The notes under the pieces are model-generated. The model ran no database searches and had not been told where the DNA came from. It saw nothing but the letters and a program-made list of their open reading frames with translations. A DNA stretch of 64,000 nt from a virus. Positions 34 through 18,309 of the stretch are shown here, one piece after another. The position numbers and the translations under genes were made by a program. The DNA lies in IMG/VR virus record IMGVR_UViG_3300027861_000010. One strand, given 5' to 3'. Each line of letters opens with the position of its first letter. Positions within the stretch are counted from its first letter, which is position 1.

Positions 34-813
34 ATGGCTTGGTACAACGAAGATCAACCCGAAACATTGAATTTCATGGTGGTAGGAAACTGCCATTCGG
101 GACATGATCTGCTGCAAGCTTGCTTGTCAGCACATCCGACGATGGTTTGTCACGGAGATGTTCTGCATCCTGACGAGGCACTTCGCAAGGAAGAGCACGA
201 AGCCTACTTCGGCGATTCCGGTAAGGTTTCTGATTGGTATCAGCCTAAAGACCTGAGCGTTGAGCAATACCTGAATAACAAAATCTTCGACAATATGTTG
301 TTCGATGAAAAGGCAGTAGGTGTTCGACTGTCTTATGACAATTTTCTCAAGGCGGACCTGTGGGACTACGCCGAGCAGAAATGCAGACAAGGTGATTTTT
401 GCATCCTGCATGTGGCTCGAAATCCTGTGGCTTGTTTTGTTGACTACATGGCGGAGAACCGACGGAAAGGGTTGTTGGATTTTCCGGTCACTCCGAGCTT
501 TGGACATTCAGTATCCCTGGAGCCTGAGGAGCTGACTCATTTTGTAAGAGATCACTTAGCTACTGAGCTTAAGGTTAATCGGCTGTGTGGCGATCGAGCC
601 GTTATTCCCTATCATGAGCTTCTGTTAGACTCCAAAGGCACGTTGCAGCAGATCTTCAAGTTTTTGGATTTGCCTTACAGTCCGGCGTGTGTGCCCAACA
701 GGAAGAAGATTCACACAAGGGACATGAAAAGCCGAATCTCAAATTGGCATCATCTTAAAGCGGAACTTCCAATTGACGTACGCGACGTGCTGGAAAGCCC
801 AACACTGTTCTGA
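34..813 (+). CDS. Sulfotransferase-like protein (Stf0/Sulfotransfer-type fold), 5'-PAPS motif degenerate
   Basis: VVGNCHSGHDLLQACLSAHP..CHGDVL matches the layout xxxPRSGSTLLxxxLxxHP..CxGELF; HVARNP and YHELLLD..LQQIFKFLDL match the C-terminal sulfotransferase pattern; RSGS/T is replaced by HSGH. Confidence 0.6.
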   Translation: MAWYNEDQPETLNFMVVGNCHSGHDLLQACLSAHPTMVCHGDVLHPDEALRKEEHEAYFGDSGKVSDWYQPKDLSVEQYLNNKIFDNMLFDEKAVGVRLSYDNFLKADLWDYAEQKCRQGDFCILHVARNPVACFVDYMAENRRKGLLDFPVTPSFGHSVSLEPEELTHFVRDHLATELKVNRLCGDRAVIPYHELLLDSKGTLQQIFKFLDLPYSPACVPNRKKIHTRDMKSRISNWHHLKAELPIDVRDVLESPTLF

Positions 814-823
814 GCAGGGAAAC

Positions 824-1108
824 ATGGCAAACGAAAAAACAGAACTGACTAAGCGGGAGTTGCAGGTGGTAGCTCTGATCGGTCAGGATAAGAAGTACAA
901 AGAAATCGCAGAAGAGTTGGAGCTTGGTTATGAAACCGTAAAGACCTACGCTGCTCGAATCCGTAAAAAACTGGGTGTTGGCTCTAAGGTTGCCGTAGCA
1001 CTTTGGGCTCAACAGCACGGCCTGATAACAAACGAGGCCCAGAAAAACATGGACGCAATGTTGAGCGAAAAACCGTGGCTTGCACAAGGTAATAAAGATG
1101 AAGAATAA
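824..1108 (+). CDS. Solo LuxR/NarL-type helix-turn-helix protein
   Basis: LTKRELQVVALIGQDKKYKEIAEELELGYETVKTYAARIRKKLGV is a canonical LuxR HTH; start placed at ATG 824 after AGGGA. Confidence 0.85.
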   Translation: MANEKTELTKRELQVVALIGQDKKYKEIAEELELGYETVKTYAARIRKKLGVGSKVAVALWAQQHGLITNEAQKNMDAMLSEKPWLAQGNKDEE

Positions 1109-2256: not shown

Positions 2257-2313
2257 CTTTGGGTGACACCGCGGCCTATACTTGAGGTGCCGTTAGCTCG
2301 GCGACACACTGAG

Positions 2314-2355
2314 GGAGCTGGGTGGGAAATGAATTCCTATCCAGCTTCTTTTTTT
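2314..2355 (+). terminator. Intrinsic terminator/attenuator-like hairpin
   Basis: 15-bp stem (2314-2328 with 2334-2348, three G-U pairs), ATGAA loop, then T7. Confidence 0.7.
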
Positions 2356-2367
2356 ATGGAGTTTCCG

Positions 2368-2643
2368 ATGCCACCTCTCAGGAAGAAGAGACCACCAAAA
2401 CGAGTTACCGCTACTATCCATTTTCGTCATGCAAAGAACGAAAAGGGTCATCGCCAACTTTGCGTATACGCTGAGTGCGATCTCGGAGGTACGGTTGTTG
2501 GACCTATCTGGGGCCACAGTGAACAGTCAGTCAAGAAAGCAGTCTCTACGTTGACTCGCGAATGTGACTGTCCTGCGAAATTCCACAAAGCTCAGGAATA
2601 CCACGGTAAACGCATCTTGAAGACAACTCGACGAAAGCCCTGA
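2368..2643 (+). CDS. Small basic hypothetical protein
   Basis: GGAG RBS 6 nt before ATG 2368; Cys/His residues near the C-terminus (CECD-like RECDCPAKFH). Confidence 0.55.
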   Translation: MPPLRKKRPPKRVTATIHFRHAKNEKGHRQLCVYAECDLGGTVVGPIWGHSEQSVKKAVSTLTRECDCPAKFHKAQEYHGKRILKTTRRKP

Positions 2644-2657
2644 CAAATCGCTATACT
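2628..2657 (+). promoter_or_regulatory. Sigma70-like promoter for the putative ncRNA
   Basis: TCGACG (2628-2633), 18 nt, TATACT (2652-2657); same 18-nt spacing as the promoters at 4155 and 23897. Confidence 0.5.
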
Positions 2658-2662
2658 GCCTC

Positions 2663-2865
2663 AGTGGCTTTACCGCAGGTACCGGTAGGTTAGGAGTCGA
2701 GGTGCGGCTAGGAGAGCCAGCGGTTCTCGGCGGGACGGTTGTGTGAGTGAAAAACGAGCAACCGGAGGAGTGTCGGTCGTACCTTCCAGACCGGCATAAG
2801 TTCGGTGGCTTAGCCGCTGCCGGATACTGGGCTCGAGGCAGGGGATCTCGAGAAGTCACTTTTTT
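2663..2865 (+). ncRNA. Putative ~200-nt structured non-coding RNA
   Basis: Starts 6 nt after TATACT; 5' AGTGGCTT pairs with 3' AAGTCACT followed by a T run; several internal hairpins; no credible + strand ORF. Confidence 0.55.
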
Positions 2866-2895
2866 ATTCTTCTCTTTCAAACAAGGAAGTTTGTA

Positions 2896-3390
2896 ATGAA
2901 CCAAGAAGGGCGTAGCGAGCGACAACAGTTAGAGGAAGTTCAAGATCGGCTGAAAGTTCTACAGGCTACGCCAGCAGAACAAAAAGAGTCACGAGCAGAT
3001 TGGTGTCATCAGGATGAGATCCTGGGCATCCTCGCAACTGTTACGGACACTTTGAGTGAGTCAGCCACTACTCGAAGCCACGAACTTGGGCGTATGGCTG
3101 AACGCCTCAGCAGCATTGAGCAAGATGTAAAACACATTCAGTCCGATATCCAAGCCCTGTGCAAAGTCGTACGCGACGGGAACGGACAGCCGTCCTTGTT
3201 ACAACGGCTGGCCAACCTGGAGGTGGTTGTGTCTAACAACAAAGGTGACATCGAAGAAGTCAAAGGGCACGCGAATTCGATCATCGCTGCCAAGGCTCTC
3301 AGTAAGTCGCAGGTGGTAGCCGGATTGATTGGTATAATTGTGACGGCCTTGTTATCCACGCTTGCGTTGGTTGCGACCCTATTGAAGTAG
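2896..3390 (+). CDS. Coiled-coil protein with C-terminal transmembrane helix (holin/XhlA-like architecture)
   Basis: Heptad-rich middle; hydrophobic C-terminus VVAGLIGIIVTALLSTLALVATLL; AAGGAAG RBS. Confidence 0.55.
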   Translation: MNQEGRSERQQLEEVQDRLKVLQATPAEQKESRADWCHQDEILGILATVTDTLSESATTRSHELGRMAERLSSIEQDVKHIQSDIQALCKVVRDGNGQPSLLQRLANLEVVVSNNKGDIEEVKGHANSIIAAKALSKSQVVAGLIGIIVTALLSTLALVATLLK

Positions 3391-3399
3391 GAACAAAAA

Positions 3400-3966
3400 A
3401 TGAGCCTGATCTCGACGACAGATATTCCGGACATCAAACAACTTCAGCTCTACACCGCGGTCAAAGACCTGGAAAAGCGATCGGCTGTCCGAATGTCTGG
3501 GTTACTGCAAGCGACAAAATCAGGCCATTTGATTGTGGGAGTTCCGACAGCCCTAGTCCGTGGTGTTTTTGACGCCATGGCTGAGCCAGGTATTTCCCTT
3601 CCCAATTCCGTAGACGGCGGAGCCCTTCGAGCTGGTGTCGTCGTCATGACTCCGGACGAGTTAGAGTCAATCGGCGGCCCAGACAAGGTCACTGAACGCG
3701 GCAAACAATTCCCGTATCACATGGGTGAACTGGAAGAGACTCCAGCACGCAATTGGCCTGGAGTTACCGTTTGCTGGCATTTGCGAATCAAGTCACCCGA
3801 GCTGGGTAAGCTGCGAAGAACCTATGGCCTTCCGACGAAATTATCGGGGAGTAACGATTTTTCGATCGTCGTGGCCTGCCGTAAGTCTGGAGTTTTGGCT
3901 GCTAATTCGACTAGCAAGTCGATTGAGCAGCAGTCGCAGACTCTGCCGGACTGGACTCGTCCTTGA
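3400..3966 (+). CDS. Hypothetical protein, possibly a degenerate 2H-phosphoesterase fold
   Basis: Two strand motifs ~77 aa apart (RAGVVV, DFSIVV) where Hx[ST]h motifs would fall, both lacking His. Confidence 0.35.
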
Positions 3967-4132
3967 GCAAAGCGTCGGCTATTGCTCGAGCAACTTCGTC
4001 TCGATGGACAGCGACATCCCGTGGGGCGTCAATGCCCAACCGAACTTTGTCGCCGCGAATCTCGACGACGGTCAAAGTGACGTTGTCGCCGATCGTAATG
4101 CTTTCGCCCTTTTTCCGACTAAGAACCAACAT
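3911..4132 (-). CDS. csrA: Carbon storage regulator CsrA/RsmA (RNA-binding translational regulator)
   Basis: [47 protein letters not shown] is the CsrA signature; GGAG RBS upstream on the minus strand. Confidence 0.95.
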
Positions 4133-13854: not shown

Positions 13855-16800
13855 ATGGAACCGCTCACGCCAAATCTGCTTGAGCCTTCGACTCCATCTT
13901 TGCTGTCCTCGGCTCCTATCTCTCCACCAAGTCCTCTGCCTGCTCAGCAGCCAGAGGATGATTTTCGTGAATTCGGTGATACCGACAAGACGCGGTCGAG
14001 CATTTACCAACGAGTGCTCCAGGCGGCTCAGTCAATTGAGCCAATTACCAATGAGCGTCACACTCTGCGATTGACCGGGGTCGACTATCAAGACCCCGAT
14101 CGCGTCAGTAAGCGAGATCAGAAAGCCGCTATCCTGGGCGGGTTAAGTCGAGGCCGGAGGCTCCGAGGAACTTGGGAGCTGATGGATAACGCCACAGGTC
14201 AGGTGCTGGATCAGAAGAAGTCCGTATTGATGACCGTGCCTCACATGACGGAACGAGGTACCTTTATCAACAAAGGGACTGAGTACACGTTGAAGAACCA
14301 GCAACGATTGCTTCCAGGAGTGTATACGCGAGTCCGTGACAACGGTGAGATTGAGTCCCACGCCAATATCATGCCCGGCAAGGGAGTTTCGCACCGTTAT
14401 TTCCTTGACCCAGAGAAGGGTGTATTCAAGATCCGATTGGGTCAAGGCACCGTCGGACTAATGCCACTGCTCAAGGCAATGGGAGCTAAACCGGGGCAGC
14501 TTAAAGAAGCCTGGGGCCGGGACCTTTTTGCGTCAAACTACAACGCAGACGACGCCACAGAGTATAAGAAACTCAAGCAGAAGTTTCTTACAAAGAAGGA
14601 ACTCGAAGGCGAAGAGAACGAACAACGGGAAGCGTTGGTCAACAAGTTTGCCAGCATGGAGATGGATCCGCAGGTCACCAGCCGGACGCTGGGCAAGCCT
14701 CATCAAGGGCTGACACTGGACGCTGTCCTGGATATTACGAAGAAGTTGGTTGCGGTCTCTAAGAATGAGGCCGAGCCAGATGATCGAGACTCACTGACGT
14801 TCCAACAGTTTGTCGGGCCGGAAGATTTGTTCGCTGAGCGAATCAAGCGGGACAAGGGTGGCCTGCGTCGAAATCTGTTGTGGAAGATGTCTGGTAAAGG
14901 CAATCTAAAAGGGATGCCGTCCTCGGCTCTCAATAAACAACTGATGGCCGCGTTGATGACTTCAGGTCTGGGTCAGGCGATCGAAGAGATCAATCCTGCT
15001 GAACTTTATGACAAGTCGACGGCAGTTAGTCGTTTAGGGGAGGGCGGCATTCCTTCAACAGATGCGATCCCGAAAGAAGCTCGGAGTGTCCAACCAAGCA
15101 TGCTGGGCTACATCGACCCAGTGCGAACGCCAGAGTCCGGCAAGGTGGGTGTAGACACTTACTTGGCTCGAGGTGCTCGTAAGGGAAAGGACGGAAAACT
15201 CTACTCACAGTTCCGCGACGTAAAGACAGGGAAACTGCTTTACAAGTCGCCGCAGGATGTGGCGGATATGACCATTGCCTTCCCAGGCAGTATGGATCAA
15301 CGCAGCAAACGAGTTGCAGCCATGCGTAACGGGAAGATGACGTACGTGCCGAAGGATGAAGTTGATCTGGTGTTGCCTTCAATGGAGGAGGCATTTAATC
15401 CGTTGTCCAACATCATTCCTATGAAGAGTCAGGTGAAAGGGCAACGGTTGGTGATGGCGTCTCGAATGACGACGCAAGCCTTGCCGATCGTGGACGCCGA
15501 AGCTCCGTTGGTACAGTCAGCAATTCCGGACACAGATGGCAACCAAAGTTACGAAGAACTGTACTCAAACAATATGGGAGCGTTGCGGGCTCCCCAGGGT
15601 GGTGTTGTCAAAAGTGTTGATGACGACGGGATCACAGTTCGATACGAAGACGGCACCGAGGAAACTCACGATCTGTATCAGAACTTCCCGTTCAACCGAA
15701 AGACGTTCATTCACCAAACTGCAAACGTAAAGCCCGGTGATCAGTTTAAGCCAGATCAGTTGCTGGCCTATTCCAATTACACAGACAAAGGTGGAGCAAC
15801 AGCTCTCGGTAGGAACGCCAGAACCGCTTACATTGCCTGGCAGGGAAAGAACTTTGAAGACGCTGTGGTTGTCTCAGAAAGCTTTGCTCGGAAAATGTCT
15901 TCTGAGCACATGTATCAACACGACTTGGAGGTCGATGATAAGACGAAGGTTGGAAAGAAGCAGTTCATCCAACAGTTCCCAGGTAAGTTCGACAAAGCGA
16001 CACTCGCTAAGCTCGACGAGAACGGAGTCATCAAACCTGGAACTGTCGTGAACTATGGTGATCCTTTGATTCTCGGGGTTACACAGCGAGAAGCGGCCCA
16101 CAACAAGGTTCACAAGAAAGGTCAATCGGGGTTTAACGATGCAACAGTCACTTGGAATCATCACGACGCTGGCACCATTACCGATGTGGTTATGGGCAAA
16201 AAAGGGCCGACTGTCGTTGTTAAAGCATCCTCCCCAACCCAGACCGGCGACAAGCTATCAGGCCGTTACGGTGACAAAGGAGTCATTGCTGACATCATCC
16301 CAGACGGTGAAATGCCGCATAACGGTGATGGTCAGCCCTTTGAAGTGTTACTCAATCCGCTCGGAGTAATCACTCGAACCAATCCGGCTCAGATGGCTGA
16401 GTTACTTCTTGGCAAGATTGCGGCCAAACGCGGCAAGCCGATCAAAGTGCAGGACTTTGACTCCCAGAAGGACATGGCTGCCTGGGTCATGGAGGAACTG
16501 GGCCGGGAAGGCCTATCCGATCTCGAAGATGTCCTCGATCCGTCCAAGGATCAGAAGGTCAAAGGAATCGCTACGGGCAACCGGTTCTTTATGAAGCTGC
16601 ACCACACAGCTGAGTCCAAGGGACAAAGCCGCGGCGGCGGGTCTTACACGATGGAGGACACACCGGCTAAGGGAGGGTCAGAGGGTTCCAAGCGTGTCGG
16701 CATGTTGGATACCAACGCACTGTTGTCTCACGGAGCTACGGCGACTCTGCAAGACGTCAGCTCTGTACGTGGACAGAAGAATGACGAGTACTGGATGCAG

Positions 16801-18309
16801 TTCATGGCCGGGTACAACCCGAAGGCTGCGAAAGTTCCGTTGGTGTACCGGAAGTTTGTCGATCAGTTGAGGGCCGCAGGTGTCAATGTGACCAAACAGG
16901 GTACCCAGACCAACATCATGGCCCTGACGGACAAAGATATCGACGAAATGGCTGGAGATCGTAAGCTGACCTCCGCCGAAGGTGTTGATTGGGGTGAGTC
17001 TCTTAAGGAGATTCCAGGTGGTTTGTTCGATAAGGCCAAGACTGGAGGTCATGGCGGCAACAAATGGTCGTACATGCAGCTGCATGAGCCCTTGCCTAAC
17101 CCTGTAATGGAGGAACCGCTTCGGCGACTCCTCGGACTCACGAAAAAGGACTTCAATGCCGTCATTTCAGGCGAAAAGCCGTTGGGATCGCACGGAGCAG
17201 GTCCTGGAGCCCTGAAAAAGGCTCTGGAGTCGATGAATGTTGATGCAGAGATCAAGAAAACCCGAAATATCATCCAAGCTGGGCGAGCATCGGAGCGGGA
17301 TGCCGCAGTAAAGAAGCTGGGCTACCTAAAATCAGCCAAAAAGCTCGGATTGAAGCCTGAAGACTATGTTTTGAGTAAAGTTCCTGTCCTGCCGCCGATG
17401 TTTCGGCCTGTCAGCATGATGAGCAACGATATGCCGCTCATCAATGACGCGAACTTTCTTTACAAAGAGCTTTTCGAGGCTAATTCCAACCTGAAAGCAA
17501 TACAGAAGGAGCTCGGCAACGACGCGTCGGGGCAAGAGCGACTCGCAACGTACAATGCCTTCAAGGCAGTGACAGGTTTGGGCGATCCGATCCATCAGAA
17601 GACCCGAGACAAGAACGTCAAAGGTATTTTGAAGACAGTGTTCGGCTCGAGCCCCAAGTTTGGCACGCTGCAACGTAAATTGATCTCCACAACGGTCGAT
17701 AATGTCGGTCGAGCGGTGATCACACCAAATCCTGATCTCGATATGGATTCTGTTGGCCTGCCAGAGGACAAAGCGTTCAAGGCGTACGACAAGTTCATCA
17801 CCAGGCGACTGGTGCGACAAGGAATGTCACTTCGAGCAGCTCGTAACGAAGTTGCAAATAAATCGAAGCTGGCTCGGAAACTTCTGTTGGAGGAAATGGA
17901 TGAACGACCGGTCTATATCAGTCGGGCTCCAGTTCTTCACAAGTTCGGTATCATGGCTATGAAGCCTCGATTAACCAAAGGTAGCACCTTGCAGGTGAGC
18001 CCTTTGATTGTGAAAGGTTTCAACGCTGACTTCGACGGCGATGCCATGAATTACAACGTCCCAAGTACGGAGAAGGCTCGTAAGGAAGCGATCGAGCGAC
18101 TTTTGCCTTCCCGTAACTTGTTCAGTCTGTCAGACTTCAAGTCTGTGATGCATGCTCCAGCTAACGAGTATGTTGGTGGTTTGTTTCATGCAACGAAGTC
18201 AAAAAGTGACCGTCCCAAGAAGATTTTCCGAACAGCCGCGGACGCGAGGAAAGCGTACGAGCGAGGTGATATCTCTATCGACGATCGCGTTCAAATCTTA
18301 GAATCGTAA
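13855..18309 (+). CDS. Phage multisubunit DNA-directed RNA polymerase: beta fused to N-terminal half of beta-prime
   Basis: beta motifs PHMTERGTFINKG, RTPESGKVG, NFEDAV, GDKLSGRYGDKGVI, LLNPLG, MKLHH; beta-prime motifs VPVLPPMFRP, GRAVITP, SRAPVLH, catalytic NADFDGD at 18022-18042. Confidence 0.95.
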   Translation: MEPLTPNLLEPSTPSLLSSAPISPPSPLPAQQPEDDFREFGDTDKTRSSIYQRVLQAAQSIEPITNERHTLRLTGVDYQDPDRVSKRDQKAAILGGLSRGRRLRGTWELMDNATGQVLDQKKSVLMTVPHMTERGTFINKGTEYTLKNQQRLLPGVYTRVRDNGEIESHANIMPGKGVSHRYFLDPEKGVFKIRLGQGTVGLMPLLKAMGAKPGQLKEAWGRDLFASNYNADDATEYKKLKQKFLTKKELEGEENEQREALVNKFASMEMDPQVTSRTLGKPHQGLTLDAVLDITKKLVAVSKNEAEPDDRDSLTFQQFVGPEDLFAERIKRDKGGLRRNLLWKMSGKGNLKGMPSSALNKQLMAALMTSGLGQAIEEINPAELYDKSTAVSRLGEGGIPSTDAIPKEARSVQPSMLGYIDPVRTPESGKVGVDTYLARGARKGKDGKLYSQFRDVKTGKLLYKSPQDVADMTIAFPGSMDQRSKRVAAMRNGKMTYVPKDEVDLVLPSMEEAFNPLSNIIPMKSQVKGQRLVMASRMTTQALPIVDAEAPLVQSAIPDTDGNQSYEELYSNNMGALRAPQGGVVKSVDDDGITVRYEDGTEETHDLYQNFPFNRKTFIHQTANVKPGDQFKPDQLLAYSNYTDKGGATALGRNARTAYIAWQGKNFEDAVVVSESFARKMSSEHMYQHDLEVDDKTKVGKKQFIQQFPGKFDKATLAKLDENGVIKPGTVVNYGDPLILGVTQREAAHNKVHKKGQSGFNDATVTWNHHDAGTITDVVMGKKGPTVVVKASSPTQTGDKLSGRYGDKGVIADIIPDGEMPHNGDGQPFEVLLNPLGVITRTNPAQMAELLLGKIAAKRGKPIKVQDFDSQKDMAAWVMEELGREGLSDLEDVLDPSKDQKVKGIATGNRFFMKLHHTAESKGQSRGGGSYTMEDTPAKGGSEGSKRVGMLDTNALLSHGATATLQDVSSVRGQKNDEYWMQFMAGYNPKAAKVPLVYRKFVDQLRAAGVNVTKQGTQTNIMALTDKDIDEMAGDRKLTSAEGVDWGESLKEIPGGLFDKAKTGGHGGNKWSYMQLHEPLPNPVMEEPLRRLLGLTKKDFNAVISGEKPLGSHGAGPGALKKALESMNVDAEIKKTRNIIQAGRASERDAAVKKLGYLKSAKKLGLKPEDYVLSKVPVLPPMFRPVSMMSNDMPLINDANFLYKELFEANSNLKAIQKELGNDASGQERLATYNAFKAVTGLGDPIHQKTRDKNVKGILKTVFGSSPKFGTLQRKLISTTVDNVGRAVITPNPDLDMDSVGLPEDKAFKAYDKFITRRLVRQGMSLRAARNEVANKSKLARKLLLEEMDERPVYISRAPVLHKFGIMAMKPRLTKGSTLQVSPLIVKGFNADFDGDAMNYNVPSTEKARKEAIERLLPSRNLFSLSDFKSVMHAPANEYVGGLFHATKSKSDRPKKIFRTAADARKAYERGDISIDDRVQILES

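What the first reader, a model, noticed from the sequence alone, without database searches (positions are those of the whole stretch)
2663..2865. Unrecognised structured ncRNA with kissing-loop potential and GGA motifs, 1 kb from csrA
Seen: promoter, closing stem (2663-2670 with 2853-2860) and U-tail define a discrete unit. Hairpin UACCG/CGGUA has loop AGGUAC (2677-2682), complementary to GUACCU (2779-2784) in the loop of a 9-bp hairpin (2770-2778 with 2789-2797). That hairpin competes with an alternative (CCGGCA 2791-2796 with UGCCGG 2818-2823), which suggests a switch. There are seven GGA triplets, one in a canonical GGCU-AGGAG-AGCC loop. Known: CsrB/RsmY/RsmZ RNAs titrate CsrA through GGA loops. 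Inference: a phage-encoded CsrA plus its own antagonist RNA; an alternative is a self-assembling kissing-loop RNA analogous to phi29 pRNA. Seven GGA is only modest enrichment in such a G-rich sequence.
Basis: partly seen in the sequence, partly recalled or inferred. Interest (0 to 1): 0.75.

Follow-up and report, generated by a model that had tools for sequence, protein, structure and literature searches.

The report
New folded phage RNA beside csrA
The flagged gap holds a real, intricately folded RNA of about 200 bases from an undescribed family, found once per genome in uncultured ~200-kb phages and nearly always next to a phage copy of the regulator CsrA, so it is probably a viral gene-control RNA read by CsrA, though its function is untested.

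Summary
Window 2663-2860 (+) is a non-coding, promoter-led RNA with no Rfam, tRNA or tmRNA match. It is conserved in 63 distinct sequences from uncultured 170-215-kb phages in marine, lake and soil samples.

- **Structure:** The five core kissing pairs form in every sequence and all six pairs covary.
- **Not supported:** Total GGA count is not enriched.
- **GGA positions:** GGA is fixed at four places: J2/3, the P3 loop, J4/5 and the L7 loop. A further GGA lies in a covarying Shine-Dalgarno hairpin that ends at the start codon of the next gene.
- **csrA link:** A phage csrA lies 0.3-1.5 kb away on the opposite strand in 49 of 52 distinct RNA-bearing loci with enough flank.

Best reading (0.45): a structured 5' leader through which CsrA controls the downstream membrane-protein gene. 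A free CsrA sponge (0.15) or a CsrA-independent sensor RNA (0.30) remain open. One complete relative keeps the fold but has no csrA and few GGA motifs. No binding or transcript data could be obtained.

This scan has very likely met the same family before, in lake phages (e1-5409665, e1-5340509, e1-5698216, e1-5377671).

The parts
2628..2657 (+). Sigma-70-like promoter: -35 TCGACG (2628-2633), 18-nt spacer, -10 TATACT (2652-2657). The predicted start lies at about 2663-2664, the first base of P1.
   Evidence: scan. The same layout (CTCGACG/CTTGATG, about 17 nt, TATAAT/TAGAAT/TATGAT, 7-9 nt, P1) appears in the upstream flanks of relatives. A -10-like hexamer is in 57/63 and a -35-like in 48/63.
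2663..2670 (+). P1 5' strand (AGUGGCUU); pairs with 2853-2860.
   Evidence: 97.6-97.8% paired; G-C/A-U exchanges.
2671..2687 (+). P2 hairpin (2671-2675 with 2683-2687) with 7-nt loop L2. Loop bases 2677-2682 (AGGUAC) form the kissing helix.
   Evidence: P2 is 100% paired and 4-5 of its 5 pairs covary.
2688..2698 (+). J2/3 joining strand GGUUAGGAGUC. It is nearly invariant and contains fixed GGA site 1.
   Evidence: Invariant columns in A6; GGA present in 58/65.
2699..2728 (+). P3 irregular hairpin (base GAG/CUC, middle GC/GC, tip GGCU/AGCC) with loop AGGAG at 2710-2714. This is fixed GGA site 2, in a hairpin loop.
   Evidence: The stems vary in sequence and length, but a GGA is in this hairpin in 65/65. 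The helices are 71-87% paired with covariation on the model alignment.
2729..2735 (+). J3/4 (GGCGGGA). The GG is invariant and the following A is variable.
   Evidence: Invariant G72, with G73 nearly invariant (at least 90%), in A6; GGA in 48/65.
2736..2764 (+). P4 hairpin (2736-2741 with 2759-2764) with a conserved A-rich loop (GUGAAAAAC type).
   Evidence: 86% paired and 5 of 6 pairs covary.
2765..2769 (+). J4/5 (G)GAGGA. Invariant GGNGG, fixed GGA site 3.
   Evidence: Invariant G103, G104, G106, G107 in A6; GGA in 63/65.
2770..2797 (+). P5 hairpin (2770-2778 with 2789-2797). Loop bases 2779-2784 (GUACCU) are the kissing partner of L2.
   Evidence: P5 is 89% paired and 9 of 9 pairs covary. 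The five core kissing pairs are 100% paired, the sixth pair 88%, and all six covary.
2801..2824 (+). P6 hairpin (2801-2809 with 2816-2824) with hexaloop UUAGCC (family consensus UUAGCR).
   Evidence: 87-88% paired with all pairs covarying. One lake clade replaces it with a shorter hairpin.
2825..2831 (+). J6/7 (UACUGGG). The GG is invariant.
   Evidence: Invariant G168, G169 in A6; GGA in only 36/65.
2832..2852 (+). P7 hairpin (2832-2837 with 2847-2852) with loop GCAGGGGAU. AGGGGAU is invariant; fixed GGA site 4 at 2843-2845.
   Evidence: 98.4-98.6% paired and 5-6 of 6 pairs covary; GGA in 63/65.
2853..2866 (+). P1 3' strand (2853-2860, AAGUCACU), then a U run (2860-2865; the first U is also the last base of P1).
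   Evidence: At least 4 U in the 8 nt after P1 in 45/63. Not called a terminator by the scan.
2867..2898 (+). Ribosome-binding segment: a pyrimidine run, then ACAAGGAAGU (2881-2890, GGA at 2885-2887) in a small hairpin (ACAA 2881-2884 with UUGU 2891-2894), then ATG at 2896.
   Evidence: In relatives a 4-6-bp stem brackets a loop of the form (A/U)CANGGANG and ends 0-2 nt before AUG. The stem covaries: CUUCUC/GAGAAG, CUCUUA/UAAGAG, CUGCAA/UUGCAG, UGACA/UGUCA, GCG/CGC. It matches WCANGGANGW.
2896..3390 (+). Downstream gene: a 164-aa coiled-coil protein with invariant VRDGNGQ and a C-terminal membrane helix. Function unknown.
   Evidence: 173 relatives. Only coiled-coil noise in Pfam. An Atlas lead to XhlA-type proteins is unconfirmed.
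3911..4132 (-). Phage csrA (73 aa from MLVLSRKK).
   Evidence: PF02599 at 88.9 bits; PHROG CsrA-like. The best solved relative is RsmE 2jpp, with the VHR[D/E]E motif kept. Present on the opposite strand 0.3-1.5 kb from the RNA in relatives.

Best explanation
The element is the structured 5' leader of a phage transcript and belongs to a new RNA family.

**Proposed mechanism**
- A conserved sigma-70-like promoter starts transcription at the first base of P1.
- About 200 nt fold into a P1-closed seven-helix junction, locked by a 6-bp L2-L5 kissing helix.
- The transcript continues into a small hairpin that shows the Shine-Dalgarno GGA in its loop and ends at the start codon of the next gene, usually a coiled-coil membrane protein.
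- CsrA (the phage's own, and perhaps the host's) is proposed to bind the fixed GGA in the L7 loop and the GGA of the Shine-Dalgarno hairpin, with further dimers on the P3-loop, J2/3 and J4/5 GGA sites. This would set the timing or level of translation.
- The rigid fold would place these sites for cooperative binding.

**Shown:** the RNA, its fold, its promoter, its single-copy conservation, its neighbourhood with csrA and the fixed GGA positions.

**Inferred:** CsrA binding, the direction of control, and read-through into the gene.
For: - **Real structured RNA:** nhmmer finds the gap in 73 loci, down to E 3e-29, while the flanking proteins are only 35-60% identical. Across 63 distinct sequences 91.5% of cells are paired against 70% in shuffles and 34-46% in slid controls. 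It does not code: a frame is open in 4/63 (+) and 11/63 (-), and lengths are spread evenly mod 3.
- **Starts at P1:** conserved -35/-10 at a fixed distance.
- **Runs into the gene:** the P1 end is 35 nt from the ATG. No canonical terminator is found. A covarying Shine-Dalgarno hairpin with loop (A/U)CANGGANG ends at AUG.
- **Spacing fits a CsrA dimer:** the L7 GGA to Shine-Dalgarno GGA spacing has a median of 33 nt (range 14-49). This is inside the 10-63 nt range that one CsrA dimer can bridge (my recollection of Mercante et al. 2009).
- **GGA fixed in position:** P3 loop 65/65, J4/5 63/65, L7 63/65, J2/3 58/65, although P3 stems vary freely.
- **csrA neighbourhood:** csrA is present on the opposite strand in 49 of 52 distinct RNA-bearing loci with enough flank. 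L073 lacks both the RNA and csrA at their usual places.
- **Natural loss case:** the complete csrA-less genome behind L005 has lost the Shine-Dalgarno hairpin and the A of four GGA motifs.
- **CsrA looks competent:** the phage CsrA aligns end to end with RsmE of the RsmE-hcnA and RsmE-RsmZ structures.
Against:
- Total GGA is not enriched (z about 1.2).
- The invariant bases are really GG doublets. The A after them is variable at J3/4 and J6/7, even in csrA-bearing phages.
- GGA-type ribosome-binding sites are the phage's general style (19 WCANGGANGW in the window against 9.6 expected). The match at this gene's ribosome-binding site is therefore weak evidence on its own.
- Gene order is conserved for the whole region, so the csrA neighbourhood is not independent evidence.
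- The fold survives in a complete genome without csrA (L005 contig) and in L001.
- In a deep marine clade the RNA is followed by other genes, and in L118/L125 by no GGA hairpin. The RNA is therefore not tied to one gene or to the hairpin.
- A U-rich tail after P1 in 45/63 could end part of the transcripts.
- No known CsrA-regulated leader has such an ornate, sequence-conserved fold.
Confidence: 0.45

Rival explanations
1. Free CsrA sponge. The ~200-nt RNA ends at the U run after P1, accumulates as a stand-alone small RNA, and titrates phage or host CsrA through its four to six GGA sites. This would release CsrA-repressed phage or host messages at a set time.
For: - It has its own strong, conserved promoter.
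- P1 is followed by a U-rich tail in 45/63.
- GGA sites are fixed in loops and linkers.
- csrA is adjacent.
- The RNA persists when the gene behind it changes, and in L118/L125 without a GGA hairpin.
- Many phage ribosome-binding sites look like CsrA sites, which would give a sponge something to regulate.
Against: - No match to CsrB, CsrC or Rsm models.
- GGA is not enriched, and only two sites sit in hairpin loops.
- There is no canonical terminator.
- High sequence conservation and a locked tertiary fold are unlike known sponges.
- The fold is kept in a csrA-less complete genome with degraded GGA motifs.
Confidence: 0.15
2. CsrA-independent sensor or scaffold RNA. The P1-closed junction with its invariant GG-rich joining strands would be a binding pocket for a small molecule, an ion or another protein (riboswitch-like). 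The GGA resemblance would be a by-product of a purine-rich core, and csrA merely a syntenic neighbour.
For: - The architecture is typical of large aptamers: it starts at the transcription start, is closed by P1, is a multi-helix junction, has a loop-loop tertiary contact, has invariant junction bases, and is followed by a ribosome-binding hairpin.
- The invariant bases are GG doublets rather than GGA.
- The fold is retained without csrA and with few GGA in the complete L005 genome.
- Conservation is far higher than protein docking sites alone would need.
Against: - No Rfam riboswitch match, even at E up to 10.
- No mutually exclusive expression platform was found; the one proposed helix fails.
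- It occurs at one locus in one phage lineage, not upstream of functionally related genes in varied contexts.
- The P3 loop keeps GGA while everything around it varies, which looks like selection for that triplet.
Confidence: 0.3
3. Self-assembling RNA, analogous to phi29 pRNA or ROOL/GOLLD. The L2 and L5 loops would pair between molecules to build rings or cages.
For: - Perfect loop-loop covariation cannot separate pairing within one molecule from pairing between molecules.
- Ornate bacterial and phage RNAs have been shown to assemble through kissing loops between molecules (bioRxiv 10.1101/2024.12.08.627333, found).
Against: - No match to the pRNA, ROOL or GOLLD models.
- Both loops sit on one P1-closed junction, where a contact within the molecule is the simpler reading.
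- The RNA lies among early-type regulatory genes, not packaging genes.
- It sits in a leader position.
Confidence: 0.04

Closest known systems
CsrA/RsmE-regulated mRNA leaders (glgC, pgaA, hcnA type)
   Same: - The Shine-Dalgarno GGA is shown in a hairpin loop that matches the RsmE-hcnA consensus (A/U)CANGGANG(U/A).
- A second loop GGA lies 14-49 nt upstream.
- A CsrA-family gene is in the same genome.
   Different: - A 200-nt, sequence-conserved seven-helix fold with a kissing loop precedes the sites.
- It is phage-encoded.
- The fold persists where csrA and the Shine-Dalgarno hairpin are absent.
CsrB/CsrC/RsmX/RsmY/RsmZ CsrA-sequestering small RNAs
   Same: - It has its own promoter.
- Several GGA motifs sit in loops and linkers.
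- It is genetically linked to a CsrA system.
   Different: - No covariance-model match.
- GGA is not enriched; there are four to six sites rather than 8-22.
- It has a closing helix and a tertiary lock.
- It has no canonical terminator and abuts a gene.
Large riboswitch aptamers with loop-loop contacts (lysine, cobalamin, purine classes)
   Same: - A P1-closed multi-helix junction begins at the transcription start.
- A covarying kissing loop and invariant junction bases are present.
- It lies in a leader position before a ribosome-binding hairpin.
   Different: - No model match.
- No ligand is known.
- No switching helix was found.
- It is confined to one phage lineage and locus.
phi29-family pRNA and ornate assembling RNAs (ROOL, GOLLD, OLE)
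   Same: - It is a phage-associated structured RNA with covarying loop-loop complementarity.
   Different: - No model match.
- It is not near packaging genes.
- It is much smaller than ROOL or GOLLD.
- A contact within one molecule is sufficient to explain the pairing.

Membership tests
Csr/Rsm sponge RNAs (Rfam CsrB, CsrC, RsmX, RsmY, PrrB_RsmZ and relatives) | Match to a family covariance model | tested here: not met
   No hit at gathering score over the window. No hit at E up to 10 over 2500-3000.
Csr/Rsm sponge RNAs (Rfam CsrB, CsrC, RsmX, RsmY, PrrB_RsmZ and relatives) | Many GGA motifs, enriched over composition and mostly in hairpin loops or single-stranded linkers | tested here: inconclusive
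   - Seven GGA in the window; family mean 7.1 against 4.9 in shuffles (z 1.2).
- Four are fixed in position: two in loops (P3, L7) and two in junction strands (J2/3, J4/5).
Csr/Rsm sponge RNAs (Rfam CsrB, CsrC, RsmX, RsmY, PrrB_RsmZ and relatives) | Independent transcript with its own promoter and terminator | tested here: inconclusive
   The promoter is conserved. A U-rich tail follows P1 in 45/63, but there is no canonical terminator hairpin. No transcript data.
Csr/Rsm sponge RNAs (Rfam CsrB, CsrC, RsmX, RsmY, PrrB_RsmZ and relatives) | Binds and sequesters CsrA dimers | not testable with these tools
   Needs EMSA, ITC or in vivo titration.
CsrA-regulated mRNA leader | GGA site overlapping the Shine-Dalgarno sequence, often in a hairpin loop | tested here: met
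   ACAAGGAAGU at 2881-2890 lies 9 nt before the ATG. In relatives a covarying stem brackets (A/U)CANGGANG and ends at AUG.
CsrA-regulated mRNA leader | A second GGA site within bridging distance of the Shine-Dalgarno site | tested here: met
   L7 GGA to Shine-Dalgarno GGA is 42 nt in the window; family median 33 nt, range 14-49.
CsrA-regulated mRNA leader | CsrA-dependent change in translation or stability | not testable with these tools
   Needs a reporter or binding assay.
phi29-type pRNA (Rfam RF00044) | Match to the model, and loop pairing between molecules that builds a ring on the packaging motor | tested here: not met
   No Rfam hit. The neighbours are regulatory and modification genes, not packaging genes. 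Pairing within versus between molecules cannot be tested here.
Riboswitch (any Rfam class) | Match to a known aptamer model | tested here: not met
Riboswitch (any Rfam class) | Expression platform with mutually exclusive pairing | tested here: not met
   The only proposed alternative helix (2791-2796 with 2818-2823) is 41% paired, equal to slid controls.
CsrA protein family (PF02599), for the neighbouring gene | Pfam match above the curated cut-off and kinship to solved CsrA/RsmE | tested here: met
   88.9 bits against a cut-off of 27. RsmE 2jpp at E 2.8e-16 over residues 1-56.

The most novel reading that the evidence does not exclude
The conserved fold would be a new class of ornate phage sensor RNA. 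Its core would be built from eight invariant GG doublets in the joining strands and the L7 loop, possibly a ligand pocket or even a G-quartet-based core. It would bind a metabolite, ion or non-CsrA factor to time a membrane (lysis-type) protein, with CsrA sites layered on top in most lineages. The csrA-less complete genome that keeps the fold but not the GGA motifs is what keeps this reading open.
Probability: 0.25. Interest if true: 0.88.

Novelty: new variant of a known kind. Interest (0 to 1): 0.72.

Why it matters
Phage-borne csrA genes are known, but their role is largely untested (PMC7366521; PMC11879866). I found no report of a cognate phage RNA for them.

This would be the first conserved RNA partner or target of a phage CsrA. 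It would show a virus carrying both halves of a Csr-type post-transcriptional circuit. The RNA side would be an ornate, tertiary-locked fold rather than a loose string of hairpins.

Whatever its function, it is a new, well-supported structured RNA family with 63 distinct sequences and a covariation-proven kissing loop. It is suitable for Rfam and for structure determination. It also marks a widespread lineage of uncultured ~200-kb phages.

Tried and rejected
- **Rfam, tRNA and tmRNA:** Rfam at gathering and at E up to 10 gave nothing but a chance lncRNA hit at E 5.6. ARAGORN found no tRNA or tmRNA.
- **Cultured phages by DNA:** blastn of the gap against 50,697 phage records found nothing.
- **Single-sequence protein scan:** a scan with the downstream protein alone in viral contigs found nothing. 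The alignment-based scans worked.
- **Whole genome:** none is held for this window.
- **Genome-collection pattern scan:** 5 hits, of which only one is real by the covariance model. That one is a 174.7-kb contig binned as a bacterium.
- **Nearest cultured phages by RNA polymerase:** Salmonella phage Arash and Vibrio phage D181 (about 31% identity) lack the RNA.
- **Coding hypothesis:** rejected.
- **Minus-strand RNA:** rejected, with fold z 0.05 against -1.78 on the plus strand.
rejected.
- **Role of the downstream protein:** Pfam over 44 members gives only coiled-coil noise. The Atlas XhlA lead (0.92, rank 9) is unconfirmed.
- **Pairing of the pyrimidine run 2869-2874 with GAGAAG 2849-2854:** seen in the window but, by eye, not kept in relatives, so dropped.
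- **Strict csrA/GGA co-variation:** L011 has csrA yet lacks GGA at J2/3 and L7, so the correlation is loose.

Full report
**What is there.** The flagged stretch lies in a 252-nt gap (2644-2895). Upstream is a small Cys-rich ORF that ends at 2643. Downstream is a 164-aa coiled-coil and membrane-helix ORF that starts at 2896. Nearly every gene in the window is on the + strand, and the window carries a multisubunit RNA polymerase and a ribonucleotide reductase, so it looks like a large phage. Rfam gives no hit at gathering thresholds over the whole window, and nothing credible at E up to 10 over 2500-3000. ARAGORN finds no tRNA or tmRNA. The + strand folds somewhat better than shuffles (z -1.78) and the - strand does not (z 0.05). 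On one sequence alone this would be weak evidence.

**Relatives.** I used the downstream protein as a handle. A profile search found 173 relatives, many on 100-240-kb contigs, and scans of viral and metagenome contigs fetched 126 loci. nhmmer with the bare gap then hit 73 of these loci on the + strand, with E down to 3e-29. Nearly all hits lie directly upstream of the homologous gene, although the flanking proteins are only 35-60% identical. A covariance model built from 60 sequences gives these results:
- It finds one copy in the window, at 188.5 bits.
- It recovers very divergent, GC-rich members: L011 at 70 bits, L116 at 67.5 and L001 at 31.9.
- It finds one copy per genome in three near-complete relatives.
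- It finds none in the nearest cultured phages by RNA polymerase, Salmonella phage Arash and Vibrio phage D181 at about 31% identity.
- A motif scan of 185,579 species genomes gave one true hit, a 174.7-kb contig binned as a bacterium.

The element does not code. A frame is open across it in only 4/63 (+) and 11/63 (-) sequences, and lengths are spread evenly mod 3.

**Structure.** The tested model has these parts (window coordinates):

| Element | Position | Note |
|---|---|---|
| P1 | 2663-2670 / 2853-2860 | closing stem |
| P2 | 2671-2675 / 2683-2687 | loop L2 carries one kissing strand |
| P3 | 2699-2728 | irregular hairpin, loop AGGAG |
| P4 | 2736-2741 / 2759-2764 | A-rich loop |
| P5 | 2770-2778 / 2789-2797 | loop L5 carries the other kissing strand |
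| P6 | 2801-2809 / 2816-2824 | loop UUAGCC |
| P7 | 2832-2837 / 2847-2852 | loop GCAGGGGAU |
| Kissing helix | 2677-2682 with 2779-2784 | L2 with L5 |

On the MAFFT alignment 90.5% of cells pair, against 72% in column shuffles and 34-46% when partners are slid. In total 761 cells change on both sides.

The five core kissing pairs are paired in all 58 distinct sequences, and each switches between G-C and A-U. The sixth pair is 88% paired. On the model-derived alignment of 63 distinct sequences, where the kissing helix was not part of the model, it is 97.9% paired with 6 of 6 pairs covarying. Even the 72%-GC member keeps it (GGCGU with ACGCC).

Its 3' half belongs to P6.

**Ends.** Upstream flanks share a -35-like CTCGACG/CTTGATG, about 17 nt, a -10 TATAAT/TAGAAT/TATGAT, and then 7-9 nt to P1. 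In the window this is TCGACG 2628-2633 and TATACT 2652-2657. The transcript should therefore begin at the first base of P1.

After P1 most members have a U-rich tail, with at least 4 U in 8 nt in 45/63, but there is no canonical terminator hairpin. Within 10-30 nt comes a small hairpin. Its stem covaries (CUUCUC/GAGAAG, CUCUUA/UAAGAG, CUGCAA/UUGCAG, UGACA/UGUCA, GCG/CGC). Its loop reads (A/U)CANGGANG and it ends 0-2 nt before the AUG. This is the shape of the RsmE-hcnA type of CsrA site (established knowledge; the phage CsrA's best solved relative is that same RsmE).

**The CsrA question.** The window has seven GGA, as stated. The family mean (7.1) barely exceeds shuffles (4.9; z 1.2). What stands out is position:
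- GGA is present in the P3 hairpin in 65/65, although its stems vary freely.
- It is present at J4/5 in 63/65, in the L7 loop in 63/65 and at J2/3 in 58/65.
- It is less fixed at J3/4 (48/65) and J6/7 (36/65), where only the GG is invariant.
- The L7 GGA lies a median of 33 nt (range 14-49) before the Shine-Dalgarno GGA.

A csrA gene (PF02599, 88.9 bits) sits on the opposite strand 0.3-1.5 kb downstream. Among distinct loci with room on both sides, 49 have both the RNA and csrA and 3 have the RNA only. One locus (L073) has neither, with a 76-nt gap where the RNA would be and no csrA between its usual neighbours.

The complete, terminally repeated 204.8-kb genome behind L005 has no csrA. It keeps every helix and the kissing loop (114.6 bits). 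It has lost the A of the GGA at J2/3, J3/4, J4/5 and J6/7, and it lacks the Shine-Dalgarno hairpin.

This pattern cuts both ways. It ties the GGA motifs and the hairpin to csrA, and it also shows that the fold has value without the phage's own CsrA. There are further caveats:
- The whole region is syntenic, so neighbourhood is not independent evidence.
- L011 has csrA yet lacks two of the GGA sites.
- GGA-type ribosome-binding sites are this phage's general style (19 against 9.6 expected).

**Leader or free RNA.** In most clades the RNA heads the VRDGNGQ membrane-protein gene. In a deep marine clade (L100, L105, L103), two other ORFs sit between them, and the RNA stays behind the upstream Cys-rich gene with its own CAUGGAYG motif. 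In L100 and L102 the membrane-protein gene keeps its own ACAAGGAUGU at its ribosome-binding site. In L118 and L125 no GGA hairpin follows the RNA. The RNA is therefore a self-contained module with its own promoter, not an appendage of one gene. Everywhere it abuts an ORF without a clear terminator. I could not get transcript data.

**Verdict.**
- **Observation:** confirmed, apart from the switch helix.
- **Interpretation:** partly supported.
- **Most likely (0.45):** a CsrA-read structured leader.
- **Alternatives:** a free sponge (0.15), a CsrA-independent sensor or scaffold (0.30), or a self-assembling RNA (0.04).
- **Prior knowledge:** phage csrA genes are documented but functionally obscure (PMC7366521; PMC11879866), and I found no report of a cognate phage RNA.
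- **Earlier scan notes:** four notes from this scan describe a ~220-nt promoter-led RNA ahead of a holin-like gene in csrA-bearing lake phages. This is very likely the same family, though I could not check that by sequence.
- **Added here:** the marine and GC-rich members, the detached arrangement, the csrA-less genome and the covariation proof of the kissing loop.

Noticed in passing
window 2311-2358 (+): A strong terminator-like hairpin (18 pairs, then a T run) lies inside the listed ORF 2263-2643. The upstream Cys-rich gene therefore probably starts at ATG 2356, and the preceding operon ends here.
   Followed up: partly
window, whole (for example 12944, 33905, 35004, 57605): The CsrA/RsmE consensus WCANGGANGW occurs 19 times against 9.6 expected (0 of 100 shuffles reach 19), mostly on the + strand. 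Several sit just before start codons. Many phage genes could therefore be CsrA targets, or this may simply be the phage's Shine-Dalgarno style.
   Followed up: partly
L005 (IMGVR_UViG_3300008448_000001, 204,794 bp, terminal repeats): This complete relative has no csrA anywhere. It keeps the RNA fold but has lost four GGA motifs and the Shine-Dalgarno hairpin. It is a natural test case for the CsrA link.
   Followed up: partly
L073 1-2136: This relative has only a 76-nt gap where the RNA should be, and no csrA between the 2H-like and SET genes. It is an apparent joint loss, though on a short contig.
   Followed up: partly
L100 1336-2939: In a deep marine clade two ORFs (322 aa with a signal-like N-terminus, and 210 aa) are inserted between the RNA and the membrane-protein gene. 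The RNA stays next to the upstream Cys-rich gene.
   Followed up: partly
window 2356-2643 (+): A small conserved protein with invariant QLCVYAEC and CDC motifs, possibly metal-binding, directly precedes the RNA in many clades. It matches no Pfam or PHROG family.
   Followed up: no
window 2896-3390 (+): The downstream protein (coiled coil, invariant VRDGNGQ, C-terminal membrane helix) has an Atlas feature-search lead to XhlA-type lysis-associated proteins (0.92, rank 9). Pfam does not confirm it.
   Followed up: partly
window 773-1108 (+): A small LuxR or sigma-region-4-type HTH protein (PHROG sigma factor, E 2.5e-10) is conserved in the same gene block. It could act on the conserved promoters nearby.
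   Followed up: no
window 13855-18309 (+): The nearest cultured relatives of the large RNA polymerase ORF are Salmonella phage Arash and Vibrio phages D181, D148 and D69, at about 31% identity. This lineage therefore has no close cultured member.
   Followed up: partly
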